Source: a virus. From it: a DNA stretch of 64,000 bases. The stretch lies in IMG/VR virus record IMGVR_UViG_3300035158_000384, positions 1 through 64,000 of that record. The stretch is one strand, 5' to 3'. This document shows, piece after piece, positions 3,362-19,254 of the stretch; the stretch's first letter is position 1; each line of letters starts with the position of its first letter. The position numbers and the translations under genes were made by a program. Below the pieces are notes generated by a model. The model did not search any database. It saw only the letters and a program-made list of their open reading frames with translations, and was not told the origin of the DNA.

Positions 3362-3458
3362 TAGCCCCGGCAGGAATCGAACCTGCTTCTAGTGTAGCAA
3401 GGGAAATCCCTTGGTGCGCACTTTCAACACTTGCCCATCACCAATGGGCCACAGGGCT
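3362..3458 (-). ncRNA. tRNA-like RNA with expanded anticodon arm
   Basis: acceptor AGCCCTG/CGGGGCT, D-arm GCCC/GGGC, T-arm GCAGG-TTCGATT-CCTGC; stem AGTGT/ACACT encloses 31 nt instead of 7. Confidence 0.75.
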
Positions 3459-3464
3459 TGACTC

Positions 3465-3770
3465 TTATTTTGCCTTTTCAACGGTGATGAACAATATACC
3501 GTTCCTTAAAGATGGCAAATCCTTTCGTAGTGTCCGTGTCTCCATATGGATCATCTCACGAGCGCATTTAGCTGATAAGGTGTCGGCTCCCTCCAACGCA
3601 TCCAGACATTGAGCCAAAAGCGCTCTCTTATACTCCTCTGTGCCCGGTTCTATGTAGCCTTTTCCATTGCACACTTCGCATATTGGACCACTTGAGGGCT
3701 TCTTCCAATACACTAGATACCCAGTTCCCTGACATCCGCCGGGGCATCCCAAGACTTCATTTTGTGACAT
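3465..3770 (-). CDS. DnaJ-type zinc-finger protein
   Basis: CPGGCQGTG and CEVCNGKG (CxxCxGxG-like) motifs. Confidence 0.6.
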   Translation of the reverse strand: MSQNEVLGCPGGCQGTGYLVYWKKPSSGPICEVCNGKGYIEPGTEEYKRALLAQCLDALEGADTLSAKCAREMIHMETRTLRKDLPSLRNGILFITVEKAK

Positions 3771-3810
3771 AAGGCAATGACCTCAAAAATCACCAACAAA
3801 ACAATTAGAG

Positions 3811-3894
3811 TAGGGGCACCGGGATTCGAACCCGGACGACCTTTCGGTCACGGGCTTTTAAGGCCCGAGCGTCTACCAATTCCACCATGCCCCC
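3811..3894 (-). tRNA. tRNA-Leu(TAA)
   Basis: cloverleaf; anticodon arm CGGGC-CTTAAAA-GCCCG; long variable arm. Confidence 0.95.
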
Positions 3895-3900
3895 AAAGAA

Positions 3901-4278
3901 CTATTCTGGAAACTTAACCTCACCTTCGCCTGTTACATAACAATCAAATTCAATTTTGTCAGCGGCAACGGGTGGGGTGAAAACGACCTTTGGAATATCC
4001 ACGCAGATAAACGGAAAGACAAAGCGGCGGAAAAAGGTCAAAACAGAATACTGGAAAAGCCCTTGGTTTTCGTTGGTCAAACCTTCCCAAGCTAGATCAA
4101 AAACCTCCTTCACTACTTTGGGTATAATAGCATCCATATCAAGGAAATCCCTACAAGGGAACTCCTTCCTATAGTCCTTAATTATCTCGAAAACCTTATC
4201 AACATCTTGGAAAAGACGATAAACACAGAAGGGCGGATTTTGAGCTTCGTTCTTGGAACAATCCATGTAGTCCTCCAA
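3901..4278 (-). CDS. hypothetical protein
   Basis: ORF with GGAGG upstream of the internal ATG. Confidence 0.6.
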   Translation of the reverse strand: MEDYMDCSKNEAQNPPFCVYRLFQDVDKVFEIIKDYRKEFPCRDFLDMDAIIPKVVKEVFDLAWEGLTNENQGLFQYSVLTFFRRFVFPFICVDIPKVVFTPPVAADKIEFDCYVTGEGEVKFPE

Positions 4279-4282
4279 AAGT

Positions 4283-4549
4283 TCATTCTTGCATCATTGA
4301 TTTCAAACGCTCAAACTCGGTTTTATCGAGGTGGAACCAAAATTCTTCCTCGATCCCCCCACTCCAAAATAGCACCACAAATTCTCCCGGTCGCGGTCGA
4401 ACATCTATCTCACCAGCATCACGATACCCAAGCACACGAATACCCGGTGCGAGAATGCCTCCCATCGTCACCTCATAAATGGAGCCTATCCCGCACGAGT
4501 ATGGACCGTAACTTTCAAAAGGAAAGCGCGTGCGAGAAAGATGCTCCAT
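4283..4549 (-). CDS. hypothetical protein
   Basis: 88-aa ORF, AGGAG RBS. Confidence 0.6.
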   Translation of the reverse strand: MEHLSRTRFPFESYGPYSCGIGSIYEVTMGGILAPGIRVLGYRDAGEIDVRPRPGEFVVLFWSGGIEEEFWFHLDKTEFERLKSMMQE

Positions 4550-4602
4550 TGCTTTTCTCCTGTTTATAATCCAACAACAAAGCTATTCAGAATCGGAAGA
4601 TA

Positions 4603-4863
4603 TTACACCTTCTTTGCTCTTGATCCGCTTTTCTGCTCTCGAACAACAGCCCGATAACAGTCGTAGCAAATAAAATGGTACAGGGGAGATTCCTTTATAC
4701 CTTGGAGTGAGACTTGATCAACCACTCGCAAGGTTCTCCCACAAACAGATTTTGCTGTTCCGTTATCCGTTTGAAGCGATAAATGTATAGCTCTACCCTT
4801 CGGGGATTGGCCTATGCCGTAAGTTTTCATGATGGCTCCGTTTTCAAAAAGGTCTCTCGGCAC
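4603..4863 (-). CDS. hypothetical protein, possible Zn-binding
   Basis: H...CG...CxxC pattern, GAGG RBS. Confidence 0.55.
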   Translation of the reverse strand: MPRDLFENGAIMKTYGIGQSPKGRAIHLSLQTDNGTAKSVCGRTLRVVDQVSLQGIKESPLYHFICYDCYRAVVREQKSGSRAKKV

Positions 4864-4872
4864 CTCTTTTTT

Positions 4873-5115
4873 TTATTGCCGCGCCTTCCAAGAGACAACC
4901 TTACCCCCGCCCCCTTTGTTGAAGCACCAACGCTCTGCACAACCCTTCTGTGCAAACCGATCCACCATCTCGTACCAATGACCATCCTCGAGCCGCTTTA
5001 GATTGTCGTCGATGTACTCGAGGGCATCCTGTTTGCGGTCAAGGTACACCTCCGCGTCGGATTCTTCGTTTTCCCAACATTGAATCACGATGTAGCGTTG
5101 TGAAAAATCACCCAT
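4873..5115 (-). CDS. hypothetical protein
   Basis: 80-aa ORF overlapping upstream gene stop. Confidence 0.6.
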   Translation of the reverse strand: MGDFSQRYIVIQCWENEESDAEVYLDRKQDALEYIDDNLKRLEDGHWYEMVDRFAQKGCAERWCFNKGGGGKVVSWKARQ

Positions 5116-5335
5116 TCTGCCCCCCTATATCGTCCGGTAGAGTAACACCCAAAGCCTTGGCTAAAGTCACCAGCGCCGCGTAGGGTGCTTGAGGATCAAT
5201 CGCACACATACCGTCTCCAACAACCTGCCTGATAGCTCTCTTGAGGCGTCTGCGCACCTTCGCCCACCCGATCACCGAATACCCGTATGCAGCCGCTTCG
5301 TCCTGCATCATGTCGTTGTAAGAAGGCTTGTCCAC
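5108..5335 (-). CDS. hypothetical protein
   Basis: 75-aa ORF directly below promoter 5376-5404. Confidence 0.6.
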   Translation of the reverse strand: MDKPSYNDMMQDEAAAYGYSVIGWAKVRRRLKRAIRQVVGDGMCAIDPQAPYAALVTLAKALGVTLPDDIGGQNG

Positions 5336-5375
5336 CTCGATCCCCCTTTAACAAAAAATCATACCCTTCGAAAAG

Positions 5376-5404
5376 AGTATACCACACGTTTGACATTGCG
5401 TCAA
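5376..5404 (-). promoter_or_regulatory. sigma70 promoter with overlapping palindromic box
   Basis: TTGACG-17 nt-TATACT with TG extension; palindrome TTGACATTGCGTCAA at 5390-5404. Confidence 0.8.
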
Positions 5405-5457
5405 GCTCTTTTTAGGAAAAATTACTGGGGGTTGCGAAAACTGGCGGGTTTATTTTG

Positions 5458-5532
5458 TCGGGCAGACAGGATTCGAACCTGCACCCTCCCGGACCCAAAC
5501 CGGGTGCTCCACTCAAGTTGAGCTACTGCCCG
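5458..5532 (-). tRNA. tRNA-Pro(TGG)
   Basis: anticodon arm CCCGG-TTTGGGT-CCGGG; canonical T-arm. Confidence 0.95.
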
Positions 5533-5546
5533 TATACATCGTCTTA

Positions 5547-5619
5547 TGGAGCCTGTGGGATTCGAACCCACTACCCCCACCGTGCAAAAGTGGTGCTCTC
5601 CCAAGTGAGCTAAGGCCCC
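5547..5619 (-). tRNA. tRNA-Ala(TGC)
   Basis: GGGGCCT/AGGCTCC acceptor with G3.U70; loop TTTGCAC. Confidence 0.95.
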
Positions 5620-5639
5620 GTTTGTCACTCTCACATTTG

Positions 5640-5724
5640 CGGAAGGTGTAGGATTCGAACCCACGGACCTCTCGGTCTTCGGTTTTCAAAACCGACGCCA
5701 TAAACCGGACTCGGCCAACCTTCC
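5640..5724 (-). tRNA. tRNA-Ser(TGA)
   Basis: TCGGT-TTTGAAA-ACCGA, long variable arm, G73. Confidence 0.95.
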
Positions 5725-5729
5725 TTTTG

Positions 5730-5803
5730 TAGTGCGGACGGGACTTGAACCCGTAACCTCGTGCTTATAAGGCACGCGCTCTCACCAGTTGAGCTACCGC
5801 ACC
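5730..5803 (-). tRNA. tRNA-Ile(TAT)
   Basis: CGTGC-CTTATAA-GCACG; canonical D and T arms. Confidence 0.9.
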
Positions 5804-5805
5804 AG

Positions 5806-6063
5806 TTATCCAGCCCACGTCATTTTTGACCACTTGTTCCACTTCTCGACCGCATCGGCTTTGCTGTCGGCGTATCTCACATGCAACGTGTGCTCTCTAT
5901 ATGATCCTTGTCCGTGTTTGGAGCAACACAGAAACAACCATATTCCACCCTGCCCCCTCCGCGACTCGTCGCAGATCAACATCGGCGGGGCTCCACACAT
6001 GCAGGGTTCGGCACCCAGCATTTTCGCCTCTGTTATGGCCTGTTCGGTTTCTGCGTCAGTCAC
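5806..6063 (-). CDS. Lar (restriction alleviation)-like Zn protein
   Basis: GAGGAGG RBS plus GTG; PCMCG...CC...ADAVEKWN resembles the Lar-family PCPFCG...AIEAWN pattern. Confidence 0.5.
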   Translation of the reverse strand: MTDAETEQAITEAKMLGAEPCMCGAPPMLICDESRRGQGGIWLFLCCSKHGQGSYREHTLHVRYADSKADAVEKWNKWSKMTWAG

Positions 6064-6089
6064 CGGCGGTACCTCCTCGGCGTAGTTTG

Positions 6090-6178
6090 TGGGAGCGGCT
6101 GGATTTGAACCAGCGAAAGTCAATACGACTATCGGGTTTACAGCCCGACTCCTTTGGCCAGACTCGGAACACGCTCCC
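6090..6178 (-). tRNA. tRNA-Tyr(GTA)
   Basis: TCGGG-CTGTAAA-CCCGA, long variable arm. Confidence 0.95.
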
Positions 6179-6201
6179 TCTATCCGTCTCGTTTACTTTT
6201 T

Positions 6202-6284
6202 TGGGGGCCGGAGCAGGACTCGAACCTACGACAAGTCAGACGAAGCGTGTTCGCCAACCGTTCTGCCAACTGAACTATCCGGCC
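6202..6284 (-). ncRNA. tRNA-like RNA with no canonical anticodon loop, encoded CCA
   Basis: acceptor GGCCGGA/TCCGGCC+C+CCA, D-arm GTTC/GAAC, T-loop TTCGAGT; anticodon arm is a ~9-bp stem with loop CACGC. Confidence 0.8.
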
Positions 6285-6595
6285 TTGTAAATGAACACCG
6301 GCGCTGTTAAGGGGTCAAAAGAAGGGTCAGTATCGAACGGGCATCCGTAGTAACGACAGCGAGGCACCCATCCGGGAGCCCCTCTCTTCCTAAAAGCGGG
6401 GTCAGTAATCCAACGCGGACGGTTAATGTAGACGCCTGTGAAACGACAGAAACCCACCGGTACCCCACTCCCCCAAATCGTTCCATCCAACGTGTCTCTC
6501 GGCTCTGCGTTCTGATCAACCTTACGCGAGTCCACAAAAGCGGGACACTCATTGCACGTTTGGGGGGCTTCACCTTTTGGCAACGTCCACAACAT
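6275..6595 (-). CDS. hypothetical Cys-rich protein
   Basis: CxxCP...C...CP pattern like 1681-2130; GAGGTGG RBS. Confidence 0.55.
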   Translation of the reverse strand: MLWTLPKGEAPQTCNECPAFVDSRKVDQNAEPRDTLDGTIWGSGVPVGFCRFTGVYINRPRWITDPAFRKRGAPGWVPRCRYYGCPFDTDPSFDPLTAPVFIYKAG

Positions 6596-6621
6596 TTACC
6601 ACCTCTGACTCCAACGCGCGT

Positions 6622-6699
6622 TGGCACACCCGGAAGGATTCGAACCCTCAATCTGCTGGTCCGTAGCCAGCCGCCTTAATCCAATTTGGCCACGGGTGT
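6622..6699 (-). tRNA. tRNA-Arg(ACG)
   Basis: GCTGG-CTACGGA-CCAGC; encoded CCA. Confidence 0.95.
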
Positions 6700-6706
6700 G
6701 TATAAG

Positions 6707-6779
6707 TACCCCGACGGGGAATTGAACCCTCGATTAGCGGATTGAAAGCCCGCCGTCCTAACCATTGGACCACCGGGGC
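6707..6779 (-). tRNA. tRNA-Glu(TTC)
   Basis: GCGGG-CTTTCAA-TCCGC. Confidence 0.9.
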
Positions 6780-6865
6780 ATTTAGAACGCTCTGCACATG
6801 CTCTTCTCCGTATTACACCGGCCCGACTCGAACAGTCCGCCCGTCAAGGATGAGGAAAGGGGGTG

Positions 6866-7117
6866 TTAATCGGGCACGGCGTCCTCGCCGCACTCCTCGA
6901 AGAGGGCGTCGTACACCCCCTCCGCTGCGGTGTCCAGTAGTTCCCCTTCGCTCAAGGAAGGGTGATCTTTCGTAGGGGAGAGCACCAGAACACCTTTTTT
7001 CTCGATTTCAGCCCAAATGTAGGGCCTCAAGTTCTCTGGCACCATCTTCTGAAAGTTCGCGCGGGTCTTGGTGCCCACAACATCAGCATTGAAGTGAATC
7101 ACATAAATCTCACCCAT
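6866..7117 (-). CDS. hypothetical protein
   Basis: GGAGGAGG RBS before MGEIYV. Confidence 0.6.
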   Translation of the reverse strand: MGEIYVIHFNADVVGTKTRANFQKMVPENLRPYIWAEIEKKGVLVLSPTKDHPSLSEGELLDTAAEGVYDALFEECGEDAVPD

Positions 7118-7174
7118 ATCGTCCTCCTCCTGTCTGATTGCGTAACCCTGTAACCGTTCTTCCAAAACAGCTTA

Positions 7175-7249
7175 CCCAGCATACGGGATTTGAACCCGTG
7201 TCACCGGATCGACAATCCGGTATTCTAAACCAAGCTGAACTAATGCCGG
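7175..7249 (-). tRNA. tRNA-Asp(GTC)
   Basis: CCGGA-TTGTCGA-TCCGG, G73. Confidence 0.9.
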
Positions 7250-7250
7250 T

Positions 7251-7328
7251 TGGTGGAGCGGGAGGGATTTGAACCCACGATGTTCTGCTTGTAAGGCAGA
7301 CGCCCTAACCAGACTAGGCCACCGCTCC
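7251..7328 (-). tRNA. tRNA-Val(TAC)
   Basis: TCTGC-CTTACAA-GCAGA, encoded CCA. Confidence 0.95.
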
Positions 7329-7421
7329 AAAACTGAAGGTGGGGGAGGAGTAAGAGGTCCAGACGAGTCCAAGGGTGTATCCCTCTTCTTGGTGCTATTG
7401 AAAAGTCGCACCGGGTAGTTG

Positions 7422-7496
7422 TTGCGGGGGTCGGATTTGAACCGACGTACTCGTGCTTATGAGGCACGCGAGGCGACCAGACTCCTCAACCCCGCA
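7422..7496 (-). tRNA. tRNA-Met(CAT), initiator-like body
   Basis: TGCGGGG/CCCCGCA acceptor, A11-U24 pair, TTCAAAT T-loop; arm CGTGC-CTCATAA-GCACG. Confidence 0.9.
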
Positions 7497-7502
7497 ATCA
7501 AA

Positions 7503-7584
7503 TGAACCAGCAAGGATCGTAGTGATTGGCTTTTAAGCCCTGATTATGAGTCAGGTGATTGTAATCACTCCGGCATCTGGTTCA
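7503..7584 (-). ncRNA. short Y RNA carrying an isolated anticodon-arm-like hairpin
   Basis: terminal stem TGAACCAG/CTGGTTCA, ATGC//ATCCTTG internal loop shared with the two neighbouring RNAs; downstream of the Ro60 gene. Confidence 0.8.
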
Positions 7585-7590
7585 ATATGA

Positions 7591-7725
7591 AAGGGCAGCA
7601 AGTATTGACAGAGAACGTGTACGGGGCCTAACCACTCGGCCACCCCCTCGTAAGTGAGGGGGGCAGGATTCGAACCTGCGTTCTCCGGCTTTCCAAGCAA
7701 AGTAGCTCTGCCAGCATCTACCCTT
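7591..7725 (-). ncRNA. YrlA-type Y RNA
   Basis: Ro-binding stem plus permuted tRNA domain: T-arm GCAGG-TTCGAAT-CCTGC, closed acceptor CCCCCTC/GAGGGGG, D-arm GCC/GGC. Confidence 0.88.
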
Positions 7726-7734
7726 ATTTGTTTT

Positions 7735-7862
7735 GGGCCGACAAGGATGAGCAGGAGTCATTGGCGCTCTACCTCTGAGCTACAGGAGGTTTCCCTCCTG
7801 ATGGGATTTGAACCCACGTCCTCCTCCTTACTTGGGAATGTAATCCTACCCGCATTCGGCCC
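7735..7862 (-). ncRNA. YrlA-type Y RNA
   Basis: GGGCCGA/TCGGCCC stem; T-arm GTGGG-TTCAAAT-CCCAT; acceptor hairpin CAGGAGG-GAAA-CCTCCTG; D-arm GCTC/GAGC. Confidence 0.9.
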
Positions 7863-7938
7863 TTTTGTCAACTGTTAAAGAGCAGTATTACAACCTTACA
7901 ATTACCGCATCACGCAAAGATGTCACACGATTTCCCGC

Positions 7939-9570
7939 TTATATCTCCACAGCCTCGATCCGACTGAGCCACAACTCTGGACCTTCCTGCGGCTGTGCTT
8001 CCTGCTCGTTTGCCACAGCGCCTCCAAGGACACGCAGAAGGTCATCGCTGAACCCTCCGATGTAATGCACTTCGTTGCCCTTGGCCTGTGTTGTAGTAGT
8101 CGAGCCTGCCAGATTAACGAAATACAATTTCGCATCCGGGCAAAGCCGTCGGTAATCAAGCCACCGCCCCATAATAGGTGTAGTTTCACCTCTTGGATGC
8201 GTAACCCCTGCGTATGAGGCATCCCACATGCCGTACACCTCCATGTCAGACAGCACAATCACCCGATCAGCTTTCTCCCTCTTCTCCACGATGTGGTCAA
8301 GAACCAGATGCGCGTAGGTACAACCGCCGCCATAGGCAGAAAGCCGCTTCTGAAGCGTGAATACCGTATCCCGAGGCTCCAGCTTCTCCGCTCCGTAGGC
8401 AGCATCGAGGTGCAACTGCCCATCAAACGGGAGAACCAACGTGTCCGGGTTCTTCTTGAGAAAGATCGCCCCGAACAGCGCGGCGACATCAACACACTTG
8501 ATCTCCGACGACTGGTTGCGTCGCATCCCGGTAACAGGCGTCCACGTCATTGACCCGGAGACGTCTACCCCCAATATGGTGCGTCCCGAGAACGGCTCCA
8601 TCTCCTCGATCAAACCACCCATCACAGCGTGTAAAGCATCTGACACGGCCCTCGGCAGGTTTTCCCTCGCGAAGAGGTAAGTAGCCAATAAGTGGTGAGG
8701 GAACAACTTCTGCTTGTCGTAATCACTCGGATTCTGGAGGCGCTCCGCCACCGTAGCGCACACCTTGGGCTCCTGCAAAAGACCCTTCCTCGCGAGCACG
8801 TTCAGGTTCATCCGCAACCACGTCCAACTCACAAACTCAAGCATCTGCGCCCAATGGACCGGCTTTTTCAGGTGGTTCTCGATAAGCGCCTTCGGGAGCG
8901 TAGGGAGTTTGTCCGACTCGCCGCGCTTGAACGCCTCGAACTCCTTCACCACCGTCGGAAGTATCTCACGGTTGTAGTCACCCTTGCGGCGGTTCACCAA
9001 GTACCCAAAAAGCGCCTCGTGCTCTGCCGTGGCAGGCTTTGGATGGACCATGCGGATCACGTCCGCCAGCGAAGGGTTCTTGCCCATGCTGTTACGGAAA
9101 ATGGTAGCGGGTTTGCGGTCTGCGAACCATCGCTCCATACACCTCCGAGCCGCATTGCTGAAGCTCTTGCGCCCCAATACACCACTACGAACGACCTGCG
9201 CGAACGTGCGAAGCTGCTTCCCGTTGTCAACCACTCGAGGGAACACCTTCTCAGCGAGTTCCTTGTCGCGGTTGAACAAGTGCGCCAAAAGGACCACAGG
9301 AGCGTCCTTCATCTTAGCCATCTCACGCCCATACACAGCCGCCTTTGCCTCAAAAAGAGCATCGACATTGTCAGCCAAACGCAGGAATGTTGCAAGCTGG
9401 TCCTCGGCGGTGTTGTAGAAGCCGTCTTGGATCGTGAACGTACAGACACCCTGTGCAAGCGCCAGCTTCGGGGTCTGCACAAATGCAATCCCGCCCGCGC
9501 TGTTGCGAGTGTCGGCCTGCGGAGTTGCAGCCCGTAGTGTGTTAAAAATCTTCTTGTTCGCCATGTCCAA
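7939..9570 (-). CDS. rsr: Ro60/Rsr TROVE-domain RNA-binding protein with C-terminal vWA
   Basis: NSAGG N-terminus, DVIRMVHPKP, LRMNLN, MIDAS DVSGSM, GGCT, VLSD; followed by Y RNAs. Confidence 0.92.
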   Translation of the reverse strand: MDMANKKIFNTLRAATPQADTRNSAGGIAFVQTPKLALAQGVCTFTIQDGFYNTAEDQLATFLRLADNVDALFEAKAAVYGREMAKMKDAPVVLLAHLFNRDKELAEKVFPRVVDNGKQLRTFAQVVRSGVLGRKSFSNAARRCMERWFADRKPATIFRNSMGKNPSLADVIRMVHPKPATAEHEALFGYLVNRRKGDYNREILPTVVKEFEAFKRGESDKLPTLPKALIENHLKKPVHWAQMLEFVSWTWLRMNLNVLARKGLLQEPKVCATVAERLQNPSDYDKQKLFPHHLLATYLFARENLPRAVSDALHAVMGGLIEEMEPFSGRTILGVDVSGSMTWTPVTGMRRNQSSEIKCVDVAALFGAIFLKKNPDTLVLPFDGQLHLDAAYGAEKLEPRDTVFTLQKRLSAYGGGCTYAHLVLDHIVEKREKADRVIVLSDMEVYGMWDASYAGVTHPRGETTPIMGRWLDYRRLCPDAKLYFVNLAGSTTTTQAKGNEVHYIGGFSDDLLRVLGGAVANEQEAQPQEGPELWLSRIEAVEI

Positions 9571-9622
9571 CTCTCCAATTCTAAAACCCTAATTCGATGC
9601 CCTGCCTTGTGAACAACCCCCT

Positions 9623-10264
9623 TCAATAGTCCTCTTGCTCGCAAGTGTCACATACTCCAAACACAACACATGCTTCACAGCACAATTTCCCACACTTACG
9701 GCACCGCGTTACACCGCTCTCCACACCACAATTCGGGCATTCCACAAACCAACCACCCTGTTTGGCAACAACGAGAACAGCGTCTACCGATTGCGCTTTT
9801 GTGACTTCTTTTCGTGCGGCCAGCGCCATTTGGTAGTCCAAAAATGATCGCTCCAACTTAACACCAAACTTCACAGCTATCACCCTCAAACGACCGTCTC
9901 CGTCGTGAACCAAACCACTCTTGAAGTGGTGCCTCGTGTACCGCTTGTTTTGTGCGTTCTCTTGTGGTGTCACAACCCGAAGGTTCTCCAAACGATTGTT
10001 AAGGGTATCGCCGTCTACATGATCCACCACGAAACCCTCTGGAACGTCCATTAAAAGCCGGTGGATGTACGCACTTTTACCGTTTTTGTACCCGCGAACC
10101 CAACCTATACCACGCTTGCGATCAACCCAATTCACAAAAAAGCGCCAACCTGCAAGCACGTCCAGCATATCCACATCCACAATTGCAGGTCTTTTGCTAT
10201 TTTTCAAATGGATATGGGCAACACCATTCACCAACTGTATTAGTGAGGGATTTGTCCGAGCCAT
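9623..10264 (-). CDS. HNH endonuclease
   Basis: HRLLM...VDHVDGDTLNNRLENLRVVTPQEN; Cys-rich C-terminus. Confidence 0.9.
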   Translation of the reverse strand: MARTNPSLIQLVNGVAHIHLKNSKRPAIVDVDMLDVLAGWRFFVNWVDRKRGIGWVRGYKNGKSAYIHRLLMDVPEGFVVDHVDGDTLNNRLENLRVVTPQENAQNKRYTRHHFKSGLVHDGDGRLRVIAVKFGVKLERSFLDYQMALAARKEVTKAQSVDAVLVVAKQGGWFVECPNCGVESGVTRCRKCGKLCCEACVVFGVCDTCEQEDY

Positions 10265-10267
10265 TGA

Positions 10268-11554
10268 CTACGTGGTATAACGCATGTGTTTGAAAGGGGG
10301 TCTTGCACGCTTTGGGTGGGGCACCTCCAAAACGTGCTGGAAACCCATTTTGTCGGTCAATTCATCGTCATCGACTGTAATGCCCTTCGCCACCTCCATA
10401 CACGCATCCAAAGGCGCTTTATTACAACCATGCAGACGCTTTATACGTATCACCCATTCCTGTAGATGTGCAAATGACATATTCTTCTGCACCGCAGTTT
10501 CCGCAAGCTGGTGCAGTCCCTCTTCGTGTTCACCCCCTTGGACACACAAACGACGGGAGGACAAAAACCTCTCGGCCTCCTCCACCCCCGGTCTAGGGAA
10601 AGCGTAACGAGCGTCAAACCGTCCGGGGCGGTTCATAACGGCGTCCTGAATATCCTCGGGGTTATTCGTGGTAGCAATGAATAACACACCACGAACGTGG
10701 GTAATACCATCCAGAGCATTCAACAGCTCCCGTAAATCCAATGCCTGATGACCGTCCAATGTCCTATGTGAGAGTCTGTCAATGTCCTCTAACGCGACTA
10801 TTCGCGGTCTAGCGGTCAGCGCGTTACTGTCGTCGAAATATGACCAGACAGACGCGGTGCTCACCAACTGATCAAAGTCCAACCGCCCTCGGGAGTAGTA
10901 ATCCATCACATCGCGGACGGTCAAATTGAAAATTTGTGATAAGGTGCGTATCATACACGTTTTACCATTACCCGGCGGCCCGTGGAATACCAACCCCCGT
11001 TTCCACGGTATCCCTAACTCCTCCTCATATAATTTGCGGCTAGCCAAAAACTGCTCCACGTCGTTCACGATTTCCTCATAACAAGAACCATGAAGCACTA
11101 CATCATGCCGACCGATAGGTTTGCAGAGGTCTGCCCTCCGTCTCTCTCCTTCGAGTTCCGGTTTGCCGACTTTATCCCAAAAGGCCGTAAGCCATTCTAG
11201 CGCTTCACGTTCATGCCGCGGCGCACGACGCGCAACCAAACCACAGAACCCTAACTCAGCACCGAAAACAACTCCGGGTAAGTACGCGAACGTAACTCCG
11301 GCGTCTCCATGCACTTCGAGGTCACGAAAACATGGGCCAGCCACAGAAAAAGTACTCGTGTAGGTGAAGGCTTCAAAAATTCCATCCATGAACTTGTAGA
11401 CAGGGGCAAAGCCAACCCATTCTTGCAACACCTCGTCCATTTTACTGTACGCGGTAAGGTATCCTTTGGAAGCCCCCAAAACCTTCCCTGAAGGGTTTGG
11501 TGTTTCTAGCATACGTTCACACGTATACTCCAATTCCTTCGTTACGTTCGACAC
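10268..11554 (-). CDS. AAA+ ATPase
   Basis: Walker A GPPGNGKT, Walker B VALEDID, TTN, SRH RPGRFD. Confidence 0.92.
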   Translation of the reverse strand: MSNVTKELEYTCERMLETPNPSGKVLGASKGYLTAYSKMDEVLQEWVGFAPVYKFMDGIFEAFTYTSTFSVAGPCFRDLEVHGDAGVTFAYLPGVVFGAELGFCGLVARRAPRHEREALEWLTAFWDKVGKPELEGERRRADLCKPIGRHDVVLHGSCYEEIVNDVEQFLASRKLYEEELGIPWKRGLVFHGPPGNGKTCMIRTLSQIFNLTVRDVMDYYSRGRLDFDQLVSTASVWSYFDDSNALTARPRIVALEDIDRLSHRTLDGHQALDLRELLNALDGITHVRGVLFIATTNNPEDIQDAVMNRPGRFDARYAFPRPGVEEAERFLSSRRLCVQGGEHEEGLHQLAETAVQKNMSFAHLQEWVIRIKRLHGCNKAPLDACMEVAKGITVDDDELTDKMGFQHVLEVPHPKRARPPFKHMRYTT

Positions 11555-11651
11555 TCTAAACCCCTACCAAACCGTGGTGTTTTTCTTATTAAAGAAAATG
11601 AGCCTAAACTTGAATAAGGGAAGGACTTACTAAAATCCCTTTAGTTCGTTA

Positions 11652-11791
11652 TGACAAGGGTGGGAGTCGAACCCACTTGAGACTTACACTCACCTGTTTC
11701 TCTGCCGCGGCTCCACAGGCTATTGATGCTCGGAACGGTAGTTTCGATTCGGGTTATACTGACCGCTCCGCATTCCATCTGCCACCTTGTC
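11652..11791 (-). ncRNA. 140-nt tRNA-like RNA with extended anticodon and variable arms
   Basis: acceptor GACAAGG/CCTTGTC, T-arm GTGGG-TTCGACT-CCCAC, D-arm GCA/TGC, stem GGAGCGGT/ACCGTTCC. Confidence 0.75.
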
Positions 11792-11794
11792 AAG

Positions 11795-11920
11795 TGCCGG
11801 TCTCTCCCGGCTGTCACACCTTAGTTGGTGGCCGAGGCATCCGCGACTAGCGCGGGAACCACCAACCTCTTTGAGCCTGCCACAAGCACGTCTGGAAGGT
11901 GTCTCTAAGACGCTAAGGTG
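11795..11920 (-). ncRNA. C4-antisense-like structured RNA
   Basis: CACCTTAG/CTAAGGTG closing stem, then TGACA and hairpin GCCGG-GAGAGA-CCGGC; family call is from recalled motif only. Confidence 0.5.
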
Positions 11921-12225
11921 GAGCCCTGATTCGAACAGGTAGGGGTTTAGCCTCTCCCTTAAGAGGGACTTCTATTCAAGAGTCACTTAAAAGCTAACGT
12001 AGTCCGCCTCGTTCTGGTGTACCCGTCGGTACGTAAGGCTTGTCAAGAATGGTACCATTCTTGGGGCTTCCGCTCCAAAAGTCCTACGTGTTGTTCCACC
12101 GCCTTACCCCACTAGTAAGAGCAGTCACGGAGGCACGTATTTCCTAAGTTTACACCCGGACCCGACATGATGGCATTAAAAGCCGCGCTCATGTTGCGCC
12201 CAACATCCAAGTTGGCAACTCCACC
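11917..12225 (-). ncRNA. ~310-nt RNA bracketed by tRNA-like acceptor and T arms
   Basis: GGTGGAG/CTCCACC ends, CCTG-TTCGAAT-CAGG T-arm, CCAAC-TTGGAT-GTTGG D-like arm; region has no long ORF. Confidence 0.55.
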
Positions 12226-12229
12226 GTTG

Positions 12230-12898
12230 TCAATGAGCACTTTGTTTGCGAATGAACGGTTTCAACTCCTCGAATATCTCCTGCGCGTTCATTCGCTCTT
12301 CTATCCCCGTACCTCTCAAACCGGGGGCTATATTGTAATCCAACGCATAGGCTTCGTAAGTATCCCGGTGTATCACAAAGTCAATGGCACAGAGTGGGTA
12401 GTTCTGAGCCCACGCAGGGCGGGGATAGCGTAAAAGCTCACCTATCAATGTTATGTCCCCGTCTCCCACGTTAGACCGCCAATCACGACGGCTCGCATAC
12501 AACAACTCAAACACTCTGTAACCGACCACCAAAAGCCGCAAACTCCACGACGCATACCCATCACCGTTACCTCTCAAATCTGCGGGCGGGATGTACTCCA
12601 CGGCGAAGGTGTCCGCCGTAACATACGGCTCGTGTAAACCGGGGTTCAAAACCTTCCCGTGCCCGCAATGCTTCTGTATGTCAAGGAACGCCACAACACC
12701 GTGGTCTACCTCTTTTGCAACTTCACAGTATGGCCCGTACAAAGGCACCCTCAAACCCGCCTTTGACATAAAGTCAAACATCTCAGGTCTGGTCATACCG
12801 TCGTAAGTGTAACGCTCGAACACGCACCGGTCTGTCGCAAAACCCGGCAAGTCGAACATGTGGTCGTAGTAATCGTGAAAGTCACTCTTCAAAATCAT
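12230..12898 (-). CDS. ATP-grasp (RimK-like) ligase
   Basis: VEYIP, LRLLVVG, DWRSN, AIDFV, LDYNIAPGL correspond to ATP-grasp motifs. Confidence 0.6.
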   Translation of the reverse strand: MILKSDFHDYYDHMFDLPGFATDRCVFERYTYDGMTRPEMFDFMSKAGLRVPLYGPYCEVAKEVDHGVVAFLDIQKHCGHGKVLNPGLHEPYVTADTFAVEYIPPADLRGNGDGYASWSLRLLVVGYRVFELLYASRRDWRSNVGDGDITLIGELLRYPRPAWAQNYPLCAIDFVIHRDTYEAYALDYNIAPGLRGTGIEERMNAQEIFEELKPFIRKQSAH

Positions 12899-18570: not shown

Positions 18571-19254
18571 TCATTCGCTACCTAAGCCGTATTCAGCATC
18601 CCTATCCGCGTCGACTTCTTCGTTCGGCGGCCATGTGTACCCGAAGTCCTTGCGTTTGATTTTGACCATACGCCCGTCCGGGTGGTGCCACACTACACCC
18701 TCGATTTTGGTCCTCGAGAAATACTGAAGCAGGCCGTAGAAGTCTCTCGGGACATCCCGCAATTCAACAGCCCCGTGCCGATAAAACTCATGCTCCTCGA
18801 GCTTATACGGGTTCCCTTGCACCTTTGGACCGACCAACTCGAACGTCGCCGGACCTCGAAGATTGTGCAACGAAGGCTCGCGGTTCCAAGCCTCCTCAAA
18901 CATACCGTAGTCCGACGCTTTCGGGTCCACCGGAACCCATCCGGGCCAATGCCCCGTGTTTACGTCAGGCTCCGTTTCACACTCACGCCAACTCTCGGGG
19001 GCTGGTTTGAAATCTGATAGACGATAGGGCTTGTCTGGATGTTTTGCGTGCGCCCTGCGTGCGGATTTTGTAACCTTTCGGTCATACCGCCGCCACAGCC
19101 TCCCTTCGAACACCAAGCAGGCCATACCATCCATTTTAACGGTGGCTTTGCCTTCCCCAGCCACAACCCACTCGCAACCCGCCACCAATTCGTCTTTCAC
19201 GAGCCGCGTACCGCCTGTGTAGTCCCTCTGAAACAAACTCGGAACCTTTTTCAC
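18571..19254 (-). CDS. ATP-dependent RNA ligase, C12orf29/RLIG1 (DUF5565)-like
   Basis: motif I TVKMDG, DFKPAPESW, GHWPGWVPV, motif III ELVG..VQGNPY, motif IV IEGVVWH, motif V VKIK. Confidence 0.85.
   Translation of the reverse strand: MKKVPSLFQRDYTGGTRLVKDELVAGCEWVVAGEGKATVKMDGMACLVFEGRLWRRYDRKVTKSARRAHAKHPDKPYRLSDFKPAPESWRECETEPDVNTGHWPGWVPVDPKASDYGMFEEAWNREPSLHNLRGPATFELVGPKVQGNPYKLEEHEFYRHGAVELRDVPRDFYGLLQYFSRTKIEGVVWHHPDGRMVKIKRKDFGYTWPPNEEVDADRDAEYGLGSE

What the first reader, a model, noticed from the sequence alone, without database searches (positions are those of the whole stretch)
3362..12225. A series of tRNA-scaffolded RNAs whose anticodon arm is replaced by inserts of increasing size
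Seen: four loci (3362-3458, 6202-6284, 11652-11791, 11917-12225) keep paired acceptor stems, a TTCGA T-loop and a D-like arm, but have no 7-nt anticodon loop. Intact elbows with structured inserts argue against random decay. Inference: natural tRNA scaffolds matured by RNase P/Z that present cargo or act as non-cleavable tRNA mimics. With the Y RNAs, RNA ligase and nucleotidyltransferase they may form an RNA-level anti-defence system.
Basis: partly seen in the sequence, partly recalled or inferred. Interest (0 to 1): 0.78.

Follow-up and report, generated by a model that had tools for sequence, protein, structure and literature searches.

The report
tRNA-framed RNAs beside phage Ro60
An uncultivated large phage that encodes its own Ro60 protein and Y RNAs also carries four genes for RNAs that keep the top half of a tRNA but cannot decode. 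At least the largest holds a copy of the Y-RNA docking stem, so they look like natural tRNA scaffolds for Ro60 partner RNAs, though this is unproven.

Summary
All four loci lie on the minus strand, which is also the gene strand. Each has a 7-bp acceptor stem flush with a T arm that has a TTCGA loop, plus a D-like arm, and none has a canonical anticodon loop. Two such hits inside one 675-nt non-coding gap is far beyond chance.

- **c1 (3362-3458) and c2 (6202-6284):** both pass Rfam's tRNA threshold, but their anticodon stems close 31 nt and 14 nt.
- **c3 (11652-11791) and c4 (11917-12225):** neither matches any Rfam family. c4 is not a tmRNA and not a group I intron.

The phage has no close relatives in any collection I could search, so covariation could not be tested.

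Distant Ro60-encoding phages (Myxococcus phage Mx1 is the nearest cultured one) also carry insert-bearing tRNA genes, and two of these have ordinary, insert-free orthologues.

c4 contains the same stem/AUGC/CUUG layout as this phage's three Y RNAs. c1 and c2 show weaker versions and c3 only fragments. A covariance model built from short phage Y RNAs did not detect any of the four.

- **Best reading (about 0.4):** non-decoding, tRNA-processed scaffold RNAs that present a Ro60/Y-type module.
- **Rivals:** Ro60-independent tRNA decoys, a spliced tRNA-Phe (c1 only), and pseudogenes.

This scan has noted similar "tRNA-shaped Y RNAs" in other phage genomes.

The parts
3362..3458 (-). c1: a 97-nt tRNA frame. 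The 5-bp anticodon stem (3431-3427 with 3395-3391) closes 31 nt (3426-3396), which include a 6-bp hairpin (3413-3398).
   Evidence: Rfam tRNA 45.1 bits. ARAGORN intron mode gives Phe(GAA) with a 26-nt insert at 37/38, but only in a shifted register. Fold. A CUUG directly abuts the 3' strand of the extended stem.
6202..6284 (-). c2: an 83-nt tRNA frame with encoded CCA. The anticodon stem closes 14 nt (6253-6240), forming 4 extra pairs and a 5-nt loop. GGCGAA lies at 6255-6250 and ACUUGUC at 6236-6230.
   Evidence: Rfam tRNA 43.5 bits. Fold. Motif pair found. No excision yields a loop with U33 (my reading).
11652..11791 (-). c3: a 140-nt RNA with a 7-bp acceptor stem, a T arm and a 3-bp D-like arm with GG. 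It also has a 12-bp arm with a 15-nt loop and two further hairpins.
   Evidence: Scan, fold, no Rfam family. An AAUGCGG motif sits at the base of the long arm and a CCUUGUC forms the acceptor 3' strand, but they do not fit one consistent Y-type stem.
11917..12225 (-). c4: a 309-nt RNA with an 8-bp terminal stem, a 4-bp T arm, a D-like hairpin and a hairpin with a 7-nt loop centred on CAU, followed by about 240 nt of insert.
   Evidence: Scan, fold. No tmRNA, group I intron or RNase P match. No similarity to the Mx1 tmRNA.
12037..12184 (-). Y-RNA-type module inside c4. The stem pairs 12184-12178 with 12043-12037 (6 of 7 pairs). A-AUGCC follows the 5' strand (12177-12172), and CAUUCUUG precedes the 3' strand (12051-12044).
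   Evidence: The strict descriptor hits only Y1-Y3, c4 and one other site. Shuffles give 2.1 per genome. The constrained fold is 10 kcal/mol worse than the MFE.
7732..7862 (-). Y1: a YrlA-type Y RNA.
   Evidence: Rfam YrlA 52.7 bits, below the gathering score of 69. Own model R1 gives 23.2 bits.
7589..7724 (-). Y2: a YrlA-type Y RNA.
   Evidence: Rfam YrlA 46.7 bits.
7503..7584 (-). Y3: a short Y RNA (stem, AUGCC, hairpins, CUUG, stem).
   Evidence: Descriptor hits. It aligns with short Y RNAs next to Ro60 in other phages, where the stem covaries.
7939..9570 (-). Ro60-like (TROVE/vWA) protein gene, 543 aa.
   Evidence: PF25045 E 1.4e-5. phrog_850 E 5.7e-33. 36% identity over its full length to the Mx1 TROVE protein.
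18571..19254 (-). RNA ligase gene (context only).
   Evidence: phrog_14301 E 2.7e-57.

Best explanation
The four loci are genuine genes for non-decoding RNAs built on a tRNA frame. They are co-transcribed with the tRNA array and flanking genes.

Proposed mechanism:
- The acceptor/T-arm stack and the D/T elbow make them substrates for RNase P, RNase Z and CCA addition. This would give defined ends and stability (inferred).
- In place of a working anticodon loop, each carries a different structured module.
- In c4, and less surely in c1 and c2, that module copies the stem-plus-bulges that this phage's three Y RNAs use as their Ro60-binding end. The layout is a stem whose 5' strand is followed by an AUGC-type bulge and whose 3' strand is preceded by CUUG.

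The most likely role is therefore as extra partner RNAs of the phage Ro60 particle: Y-RNA modules presented on a tRNA scaffold. In classical YrlA the wiring is the other way round, with the tRNA-like part inside the Ro60-binding stem.

What the particle does in infection is unknown. Tethering host PNPase or other RNA-handling enzymes, as shown for other Ro60/Y RNA pairs, is one possibility.
For: - The frames are real and non-random. c1 and c2 score 45.1 and 43.5 bits on Rfam tRNA.
- The loci lie in non-coding gaps on the gene strand, within 1.7-4.5 kb of the Ro60 gene and three Y RNAs.
- The strict Y-module descriptor (6-nt stem, AUGC, AU.CUUG) hits only Y1-Y3, c4 and one other site, against 2.1 per genome in shuffles. 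That means about 0.004 hits expected inside c4. c4's 3' bulge matches Y1's in 7 of 8 bases.
- c2 carries GGCGAA and ACUUGUCG, the exact Rfam YrlA consensus at both conserved motifs. About 0.004 are expected per 83 nt.
- c1 has CUUG directly abutting the 3' strand of its extended anticodon stem.
- A relaxed descriptor hits c1, c2, c4 and Y1-Y3. It hits only 9 of 305 canonical phage tRNAs and 0 of 10 insert-bearing tRNA-like RNAs from other phages.
- Chen et al. 2014 (PMC4201824) show that Y RNAs sit within 2 kb of Ro60, carry the GNCGAA motif, and can be cut by RNase P and receive CCA. PMC12135203 shows a phage Ro60 binding CGAA-motif RNAs.
Against: - The motif descriptors were written after I had seen the sequences.
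- A covariance model built from 10 short Y RNAs of other Ro60 phages plus Y3 finds Y1 (23.2 bits) but not c1-c4 at E<=10. It also misses Y2, so its sensitivity is low.
- Rfam YrlA gives no hit on c3 or c4.
- Forcing the Y-type stem in c4 costs 10 kcal/mol, because the CUUG segment sits in a perfect 20-nt palindromic hairpin.
- In c2 the Y-type stem would unzip part of the T arm.
- c3 has only scattered motif fragments.
- The single motifs are common in the genome.
- There are no relatives, so no covariation could be tested, and no expression data.
Confidence: 0.4

Rival explanations
1. The RNAs are tRNA mimics that work without Ro60. They would be stable, non-cleavable decoys or sponges for host proteins that recognise the tRNA body. 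Candidates are anticodon nucleases of defence systems, modification enzymes, synthetases and EF-Tu.
For: The elbow and acceptor are intact while the anticodon loop is missing or buried. Phage tRNAs are known counter-measures to tRNA-cleaving defences (papers listed, such as PMC10264068 and PMC11464382). An RNA ligase gene is nearby. Anticodon-less tRNA-like genes also occur in other phages without the Y-type motif, for example L120.
Against: Known anticodon nucleases read the anticodon loop, which these RNAs lack. No defence or anti-defence gene is linked. This reading does not explain the large structured inserts of c3 and c4, or the Y-type motif layout in c4.
Confidence: 0.2
2. c1 is an interrupted tRNA-Phe(GAA) gene. 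Its 26-nt insert at position 37/38 is removed by cleavage and ligation to give a decoding tRNA. c2-c4 would be something else.
For: ARAGORN intron mode recovers a canonical 7-nt loop with U33, GAA and A37. No other tRNA-Phe is present in the record. An RNA ligase is encoded. In other Ro60 phages, inserts split loops whose halves rebuild the orthologue's anticodon. L119 rebuilds Asn-GUU as in L104, and L114 rebuilds Pro-UGG with G37 as in L102. The stems carry compensatory changes.
Against: The canonical loop needs a shifted register: either a 4-bp anticodon stem, or an A-A mismatch with a 3-nt variable loop. In the register Rfam uses, no excision gives U33. I see no bulge-helix-bulge motif. 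No splicing endonuclease (PF01974) is found in this or four related records. Protein-spliced tRNA introns are not known in bacteria (my knowledge). c2-c4 cannot be rescued by any excision.
Confidence: 0.15
3. c1 and c2 are decaying tRNA pseudogenes hit by small insertions. c3 and c4 are leftovers or other unrelated structured spacers of the operon with no function of their own.
For: No relatives are available to show conservation. Degenerate tRNA copies do exist in such arrays, for example L114:19278-19361, which has a truncated anticodon stem. The fold z-scores are modest, from -1.2 to -2.8.
Against: All stems, the conserved T loop, G18 G19 and the encoded CCA of c2 are intact, while only the anticodon region differs. 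Two perfect acceptor-plus-T-arm frames in one 675-nt gap are not expected by chance. The inserts are themselves structured. Similar insert-bearing genes recur in many Ro60 phages.
Confidence: 0.12
4. c4 is a very divergent tmRNA, or a tRNA interrupted by a group I intron.
For: Its size (309 nt) and tRNA-like ends fit. The nearest cultured relative, Mx1, has a true tmRNA in its tRNA array. There are weak R/S-like elements, GGACU...AGUCC.
Against: No hit to any tmRNA, group I intron or RNase P model at E<=10 in a 661-nt search. ARAGORN finds no credible tmRNA even at 60% thresholds. The third acceptor pair is U-A, not G-U, and there is no tag frame ending in Ala-Ala. There is no similarity to the Mx1 tmRNA. 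The 5' part has complete local hairpins, so no anticodon arm is split.
Confidence: 0.03

Closest known systems
YrlA-type bacterial and phage Y RNAs bound by Ro60/Rsr (Rfam RF02553; Chen et al. 2014, PMC4201824; phage phiLo Yrl1/2, PMC12135203)
   Same: Encoded next to a Ro60 gene. They combine a tRNA-like elbow (T arm, D arm, acceptor-like stem) with a stem flanked by CGAA/AUGC and CUUG bulges. They may be handled by RNase P and the CCA enzyme.
   Different: In YrlA the RNA ends lie in the Ro60-binding stem and the tRNA-like part is internal, with a loop-closed acceptor. Here the ends lie in a true acceptor stem and the Y-type module, where present, is internal. The Rfam model and my own model do not detect c1-c4. 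Binding is untested.
Engineered tRNA scaffolds for expressing recombinant RNA, where cargo replaces the anticodon loop (Ponchon and Dardel; cited from memory)
   Same: The architecture is the same: acceptor, D and T arms are kept, and cargo is grafted onto the anticodon stem. This uses tRNA processing and gives stability.
   Different: Those are artificial constructs. Here the arrangement is natural and the cargo is unknown or Y-like.
Insert-bearing tRNA genes of other Ro60-encoding phages found here (L114:16717-16816, L119:18171-18299, L115, L101, L104, L120, L121)
   Same: They pass the Rfam tRNA threshold with 26-77 extra nt, lie inside phage tRNA arrays near Ro60, and keep intact stems.
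   Different: In L114 and L119 the split loop halves rebuild the orthologue's anticodon. None of the ten carries the CUUG-type descriptor. They share no sequence similarity with c1-c4.
tmRNA (RF00023)
   Same: c4 has paired ends, a T arm and a large internal domain. The related phage Mx1 has a tmRNA in its tRNA array.
   Different: c4 has no G3-U70 pair, no tag frame and no model match.
Phage T4 stable RNAs species 1 and 2 (rnaC, rnaD) in the tRNA cluster (cited from memory)
   Same: These are roughly 120-140-nt stable RNAs of unknown function, processed from a phage tRNA operon.
   Different: T4 has no Ro60.

Membership tests
tRNA (RF00005) | Cloverleaf scoring above the Rfam gathering score (29 bits) | tested here: met
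   c1 scores 45.1 bits and c2 43.5 bits. c3 and c4 have no hit at E<=10, so the feature is met for c1 and c2 only.
tRNA (RF00005) | 7-nt anticodon loop with U33 and a purine at position 37, on a 5-bp stem | tested here: not met
   c2 has a 14-nt closure with a 5-nt tip. c4's loop has A33. c3 has none at that position. c1 gets one only after removing 26 nt in a shifted register.
tRNA (RF00005) | Aminoacylation and decoding | not testable with these tools
   This needs tRNA-seq or charging assays.
YrlA / Y RNA (RF02553) | Match to the family covariance model | tested here: not met
   No YrlA hit on c1-c4. c2's region gives only 16.4 bits on an offset span. My own model R1 gives no hit at E<=10.
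YrlA / Y RNA (RF02553) | Encoded close to a Ro60 gene | tested here: met
   Ro60 lies at 7939-9570. c2 is 1.7 kb downstream, c3 2.1 kb and c4 2.3 kb upstream, and c1 4.5 kb downstream, all on the same strand.
YrlA / Y RNA (RF02553) | Stem whose 5' strand is followed by the CGAA/AUGC bulge and whose 3' strand is preceded by CUUG | tested here: inconclusive
   c4 passes the strict descriptor. c1 and c2 pass only the relaxed one. c3 is inconsistent. The thermodynamic fold of c4 disfavours the stem.
YrlA / Y RNA (RF02553) | Binding by Ro60 | not testable with these tools
   No RNA-protein prediction tool was available. EMSA is needed.
tmRNA | Model match, G3-U70 pair, and a tag reading frame | tested here: not met
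   The third acceptor pair is U-A.
Group I intron in a tRNA gene | Match to RF00028 and a split anticodon arm | tested here: not met
   No hit at E<=10. The 5' part of c4 forms complete hairpins.
Protein-spliced (archaeal/eukaryal type) tRNA intron | Bulge-helix-bulge motif at the junctions, and a splicing endonuclease | tested here: not met
   By inspection, no 3-nt/4-bp/3-nt motif is present in c1 or in L114. PF01974 is absent from G000 and four related records, but G000 is only 47% complete.

The most novel reading that the evidence does not exclude
A phage uses the tRNA body as a natural expression and processing scaffold for Y-RNA modules. These would be complete tRNA frames, matured by RNase P/Z and perhaps given CCA or even charged, whose anticodon arm is replaced by the Ro60-docking stem plus effector domains. 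This is a topological inversion of YrlA. It would give the phage Ro60 particle a set of differently sized partner RNAs. Some insert-bearing tRNAs in related phages may be spliced or dual-use.
Probability: 0.35. Interest if true: 0.8.

Novelty: new variant of a known kind. Interest (0 to 1): 0.6.

Why it matters
If these RNAs are Ro60 partners, they would show that the link between tRNA shape and Y RNAs can be wired in two ways. They would also show that phages expand the Ro60 particle with scaffolded RNAs of 80-310 nt.

That gives a direct handle on what phage Ro60 does during infection, which is an open question (PMC12135203). It would also be a natural precedent for the engineered tRNA scaffold.

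There is a practical point too. Annotation pipelines call c2 a tRNA-Arg and miss c1, c3 and c4. Insert-bearing tRNA genes make up about 4% of tRNA hits in five related phage records, so phage tRNA censuses are distorted.

Tried and rejected
**Searches for relatives, to test covariation**
- megablast and blastn against phages found nothing.
- The search for related loci with the AAA, Ro60, helicase and ORF-222 proteins found only relatives at 33% identity or less, and these were not syntenic.
- A search of 5.8 billion proteins with the AAA protein found nothing above 33% identity except the protein itself.
- nhmmer with c1-c4 against about 2.3 Mb of fetched loci found nothing.
- Gapped alignment of c1-c4 to 305 phage tRNAs gave scores at the null level.
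- This scan's own index held no look-alikes.

**Readings I rejected**
- tmRNA, group I intron and RNase P for c4.
- Promoter or terminator signals: counts were at shuffle level.
- A shared 5' motif between c3 and c4: at chance level.
- Antisense targets: only 12-13-nt matches, at chance level.
- Long 'tRNA-like' hits in L100, L102 and L119:20585: artefacts spanning several genes.
- Bulge-helix-bulge motif: not present.
- Own covariance model R1: negative for c1-c4.

Full report
**Context**

The window is the first 64 kb of a 95.7-kb IMG/VR virus record that CheckV estimates as 47% complete. Genes run on the minus strand. They include a DnaB-like helicase, an exonuclease V/Dda-type helicase, baseplate and tail proteins, an RNA ligase and a GroES-like protein.

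ARAGORN finds 12 tRNAs at 3810-7496, all on the minus strand. Rfam finds two YrlA-type Y RNAs at 7732-7862 and 7589-7724, scoring 52.7 and 46.7 bits against a gathering score of 69. They lie directly downstream of a 543-aa Ro60-like gene at 7939-9570, which matches PF25045 and phrog_850. A third, short Y RNA lies at 7503-7584.

The helicase is below 40% identical to any cultured phage protein, with Herelleviridae the best match. The Ro60 protein is 36% identical over its full length to that of Myxococcus phage Mx1. The host is bacterial but unknown.

Yes. I scanned for a T arm with a TTCRANN loop followed directly by a 7-nt strand that pairs with an upstream 7-mer. The scan recovers the tRNAs plus exactly the four loci. 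Shuffled genomes give about 1.2 hits per genome, so two hits in the 675-nt non-coding gap 11555-12229 on the gene strand are not chance.

- **c1 (3362-3458).** Scores 45.1 bits on Rfam tRNA. It has a perfect 5-bp anticodon stem that closes 31 nt, including a 6-bp hairpin.
- **c2 (6202-6284).** Scores 43.5 bits and encodes CCA. Its anticodon stem closes 14 nt, which add four pairs and leave a 5-nt loop. ARAGORN's default call of tRNA-Arg(ACG) is forced.
- **c3 (11652-11791).** Has a 7-bp acceptor stem, a T arm and a 3-bp D-like arm with GG. It also has a 12-bp arm with a 15-nt loop and two more hairpins.
- **c4 (11917-12225).** Has an 8-bp terminal stem plus a 4-bp T stem, and a D-like hairpin. 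A hairpin with a 7-nt loop centred on CAU but with A33 follows, then about 240 nt of further structure before the T arm.

**What they are not**

c3 and c4 match no Rfam family at E<=10 in a 661-nt search. That covers tmRNA, group I intron and RNase P.

For c4 specifically:
- ARAGORN gives no credible tmRNA, even at lowered thresholds.
- Its third acceptor pair is U-A, and it has no Ala-ending tag frame.
- It does not align with the genuine tmRNA of Mx1.
- Its 5' part forms complete local hairpins, so it is not a tRNA split by an intron in the anticodon loop.

**Relatives**

The phage is an orphan. DNA searches, four protein-anchored scans of IMG/VR and a search of 5.8 billion proteins found nothing closer than about 33-38% protein identity. 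No homologue of c1-c4 turned up in about 2.3 Mb of fetched loci.

Covariation therefore could not be tested.

**The wider pattern**

I aligned this Ro60 with the Mx1 protein and used the alignment to fetch 22 loci from Ro60-encoding phages. Their tRNA arrays contain Rfam-passing tRNA hits of 100-129 nt (L114:16717-16816, L115:12141-12264, L119:18171-18299). Further long hits occur elsewhere in the same records, giving five of 127 tRNA hits in five records.

The inserts sit in different places:
- In the anticodon loop.
- In the D loop (L104:16328-16462).
- As a hairpin that replaces the anticodon loop altogether (L120, which resembles c2).

Two of these genes have ordinary orthologues:
- **L119.** It equals the tRNA-Asn(GUU) of L104 plus 45 nt between positions 35 and 36. 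Five stem pairs between the two show compensatory changes.
- **L114.** It equals a tRNA-Pro(UGG) like that of L102 plus 26 nt between positions 33 and 34. The flanks rebuild UGG followed by G37.

So insert-bearing tRNA genes arise from ordinary tRNAs and stay under structural selection. Whether the inserts are removed is unknown. No splicing endonuclease domain was found in five records, and I see no bulge-helix-bulge motif.

Mx1 itself has unannotated features: a tmRNA, a YrlA-like RNA, several tRNAs and a 111-nt tRNA-like RNA.

**The link to Ro60**

Earlier notes of this scan on other phages proposed that such RNAs are tRNA-shaped Y RNAs. I treated that as a lead and tested it here.

The window's three Y RNAs share one layout: a 6-bp terminal stem, AUGC directly after its 5' strand, and AU.CUUG directly before its 3' strand. 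The same layout marks short Y RNAs beside Ro60 in other phages, where the stem covaries at all 7 pairs.

Results for each locus:
- **c4.** A strict descriptor of the layout hits only Y1-Y3, one site at 64703-64992, and c4. In c4 the stem pairs 12184-12178 with 12043-12037, with A-AUGCC and CAUUCUUG in place. Shuffles give 2.1 hits per genome, so about 0.004 are expected inside c4.
- **c2.** It contains GGCGAA at the start of its loop and ACUUGUCG downstream. Both are identical to the Rfam YrlA consensus motifs. About 0.004 are expected per 83 nt.
- **c1.** It has CUUG abutting the 3' strand of its extended anticodon stem and an A-rich ...UGC element after the 5' strand.
- **c3.** It has an AAUGCGG element at the base of its long arm and CCUUGUC as its acceptor 3' strand, but no consistent stem joins the two.

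A relaxed descriptor hits c1, c2, c4 and all three Y RNAs. It hits 3% of 305 canonical phage tRNAs and none of ten insert-bearing tRNA-like RNAs from other phages.

Evidence against the link:
- I wrote the descriptors after seeing the sequences.
- The single motifs are common in the genome.
- The Y-type fold of c4 is 10 kcal/mol worse than the MFE, because the CUUG segment lies in a perfect 20-nt palindrome.
- In c2 the stem would compete with the T arm.
- A covariance model built from short phage Y RNAs detects Y1 (E 0.0024) but neither Y2 nor c1-c4.

**Topology**

Where the module is present, its stem is proximal to the tRNA body. These are therefore Y-RNA-like units whose termini are extended into a tRNA frame, which is the design of engineered tRNA scaffolds. 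They are not a simple circular permutation of YrlA.

**Verdict**

The loci are real tRNA-framed, non-decoding RNA genes.

| Reading | Confidence |
|---|---|
| They present Ro60/Y-type modules (firmest for c4, tentative for c1 and c2, open for c3) | about 0.4 |
| Ro60-independent tRNA decoys | 0.2 |
| c1 is a spliced tRNA-Phe | 0.15 |
| Pseudogenes | 0.12 |
| c4 is a tmRNA or holds a group I intron | 0.03 |

Processing, binding and biological role are all inferred. I found no description of tRNA-framed Y RNAs in the papers I could search. I therefore rate this as a new variant of a known kind.

Noticed in passing
window 7503-7584 (-): A third, short Y RNA with a 6-bp terminal stem, AUGCC and CUUG bulges. 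Internally it has a hairpin that copies a tRNA-Met anticodon arm (loop with U33, CAU, A37). It aligns with 56-90-nt Y RNAs beside Ro60 in other phages.
   Followed up: partly
L096:1732-2108 and L096/L097 (Myxococcus phage Mx1, OR576727.2): The public record lacks a tmRNA (Rfam 117.7 bits, tag ending MMAAA) that is overlapped by a small CDS annotated as 'Hef-like endonuclease'. It also lacks a YrlA-like RNA (L096:255-383) and about a dozen tRNAs, several only 67-69 nt long. A 111-nt tRNA-like RNA with two T-arm-like hairpins lies at L096:7212-7322.
   Followed up: partly
L119:18171-18299 vs L104:18108-18190; L114:16717-16816 vs L102:14403-14480: Orthologous tRNA pairs with and without a 45-nt or 26-nt insert inside the anticodon loop, at positions 35/36 and 33/34. 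The flanks rebuild the orthologue's anticodon, and the stems carry compensatory changes.
   Followed up: partly
L104:16328-16462: A tRNA-Gly(UCC)-like gene with an insert of about 65 nt, forming a hairpin, inside the D loop.
   Followed up: no
L021 (332-kb phage, G001) 5494-8762: Class I tRNAs (Ile, Lys, Gln, Thr) of 86-94 nt with long extra arms, plus YrlA-like hits, in a jumbo phage that also has two PolyA_pol/CCA-type domains.
   Followed up: no
L114, L119, L102, L105/L106 tRNA arrays: ARAGORN calls tRNAs with 8-nt or 6-nt anticodon loops ('ggaa', 'taaa', 'tt', 'ta'), plus Pyl(cta) and Stop(tta) anticodons, in Ro60-phage arrays. These may be suppressor or frameshift tRNAs, or further mimics.
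   Followed up: no
window 12044-12063: A perfect 20-nt palindrome inside c4. It contains both a GAAUGG element and the CAUUCUUG element, so the Y-type 3' bulge can be masked by pairing. Y1 has a comparable insert complementary to its own CUUG bulge.
   Followed up: partly
window 11556-11568 vs c4 (11950-11938): A 13-nt perfect complementarity between the 5' leader of the AAA ATPase gene and the segment of c4 just before its T arm. This is at the level expected by chance.
   Followed up: partly
L009/L010 2834-3195: Permuted (two-piece type) tmRNA genes in two viral contigs that share a 33%-identical homologue of ORF 12230-12898.
   Followed up: no
window 9623-10264 and 10268-11554 (-): An HNH_3 endonuclease and a 428-aa AAA ATPase lie between the Ro60 gene and c3/c4. 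The ATPase belongs to a family of about 445-aa proteins in metagenomes, at about 30% identity.
   Followed up: partly
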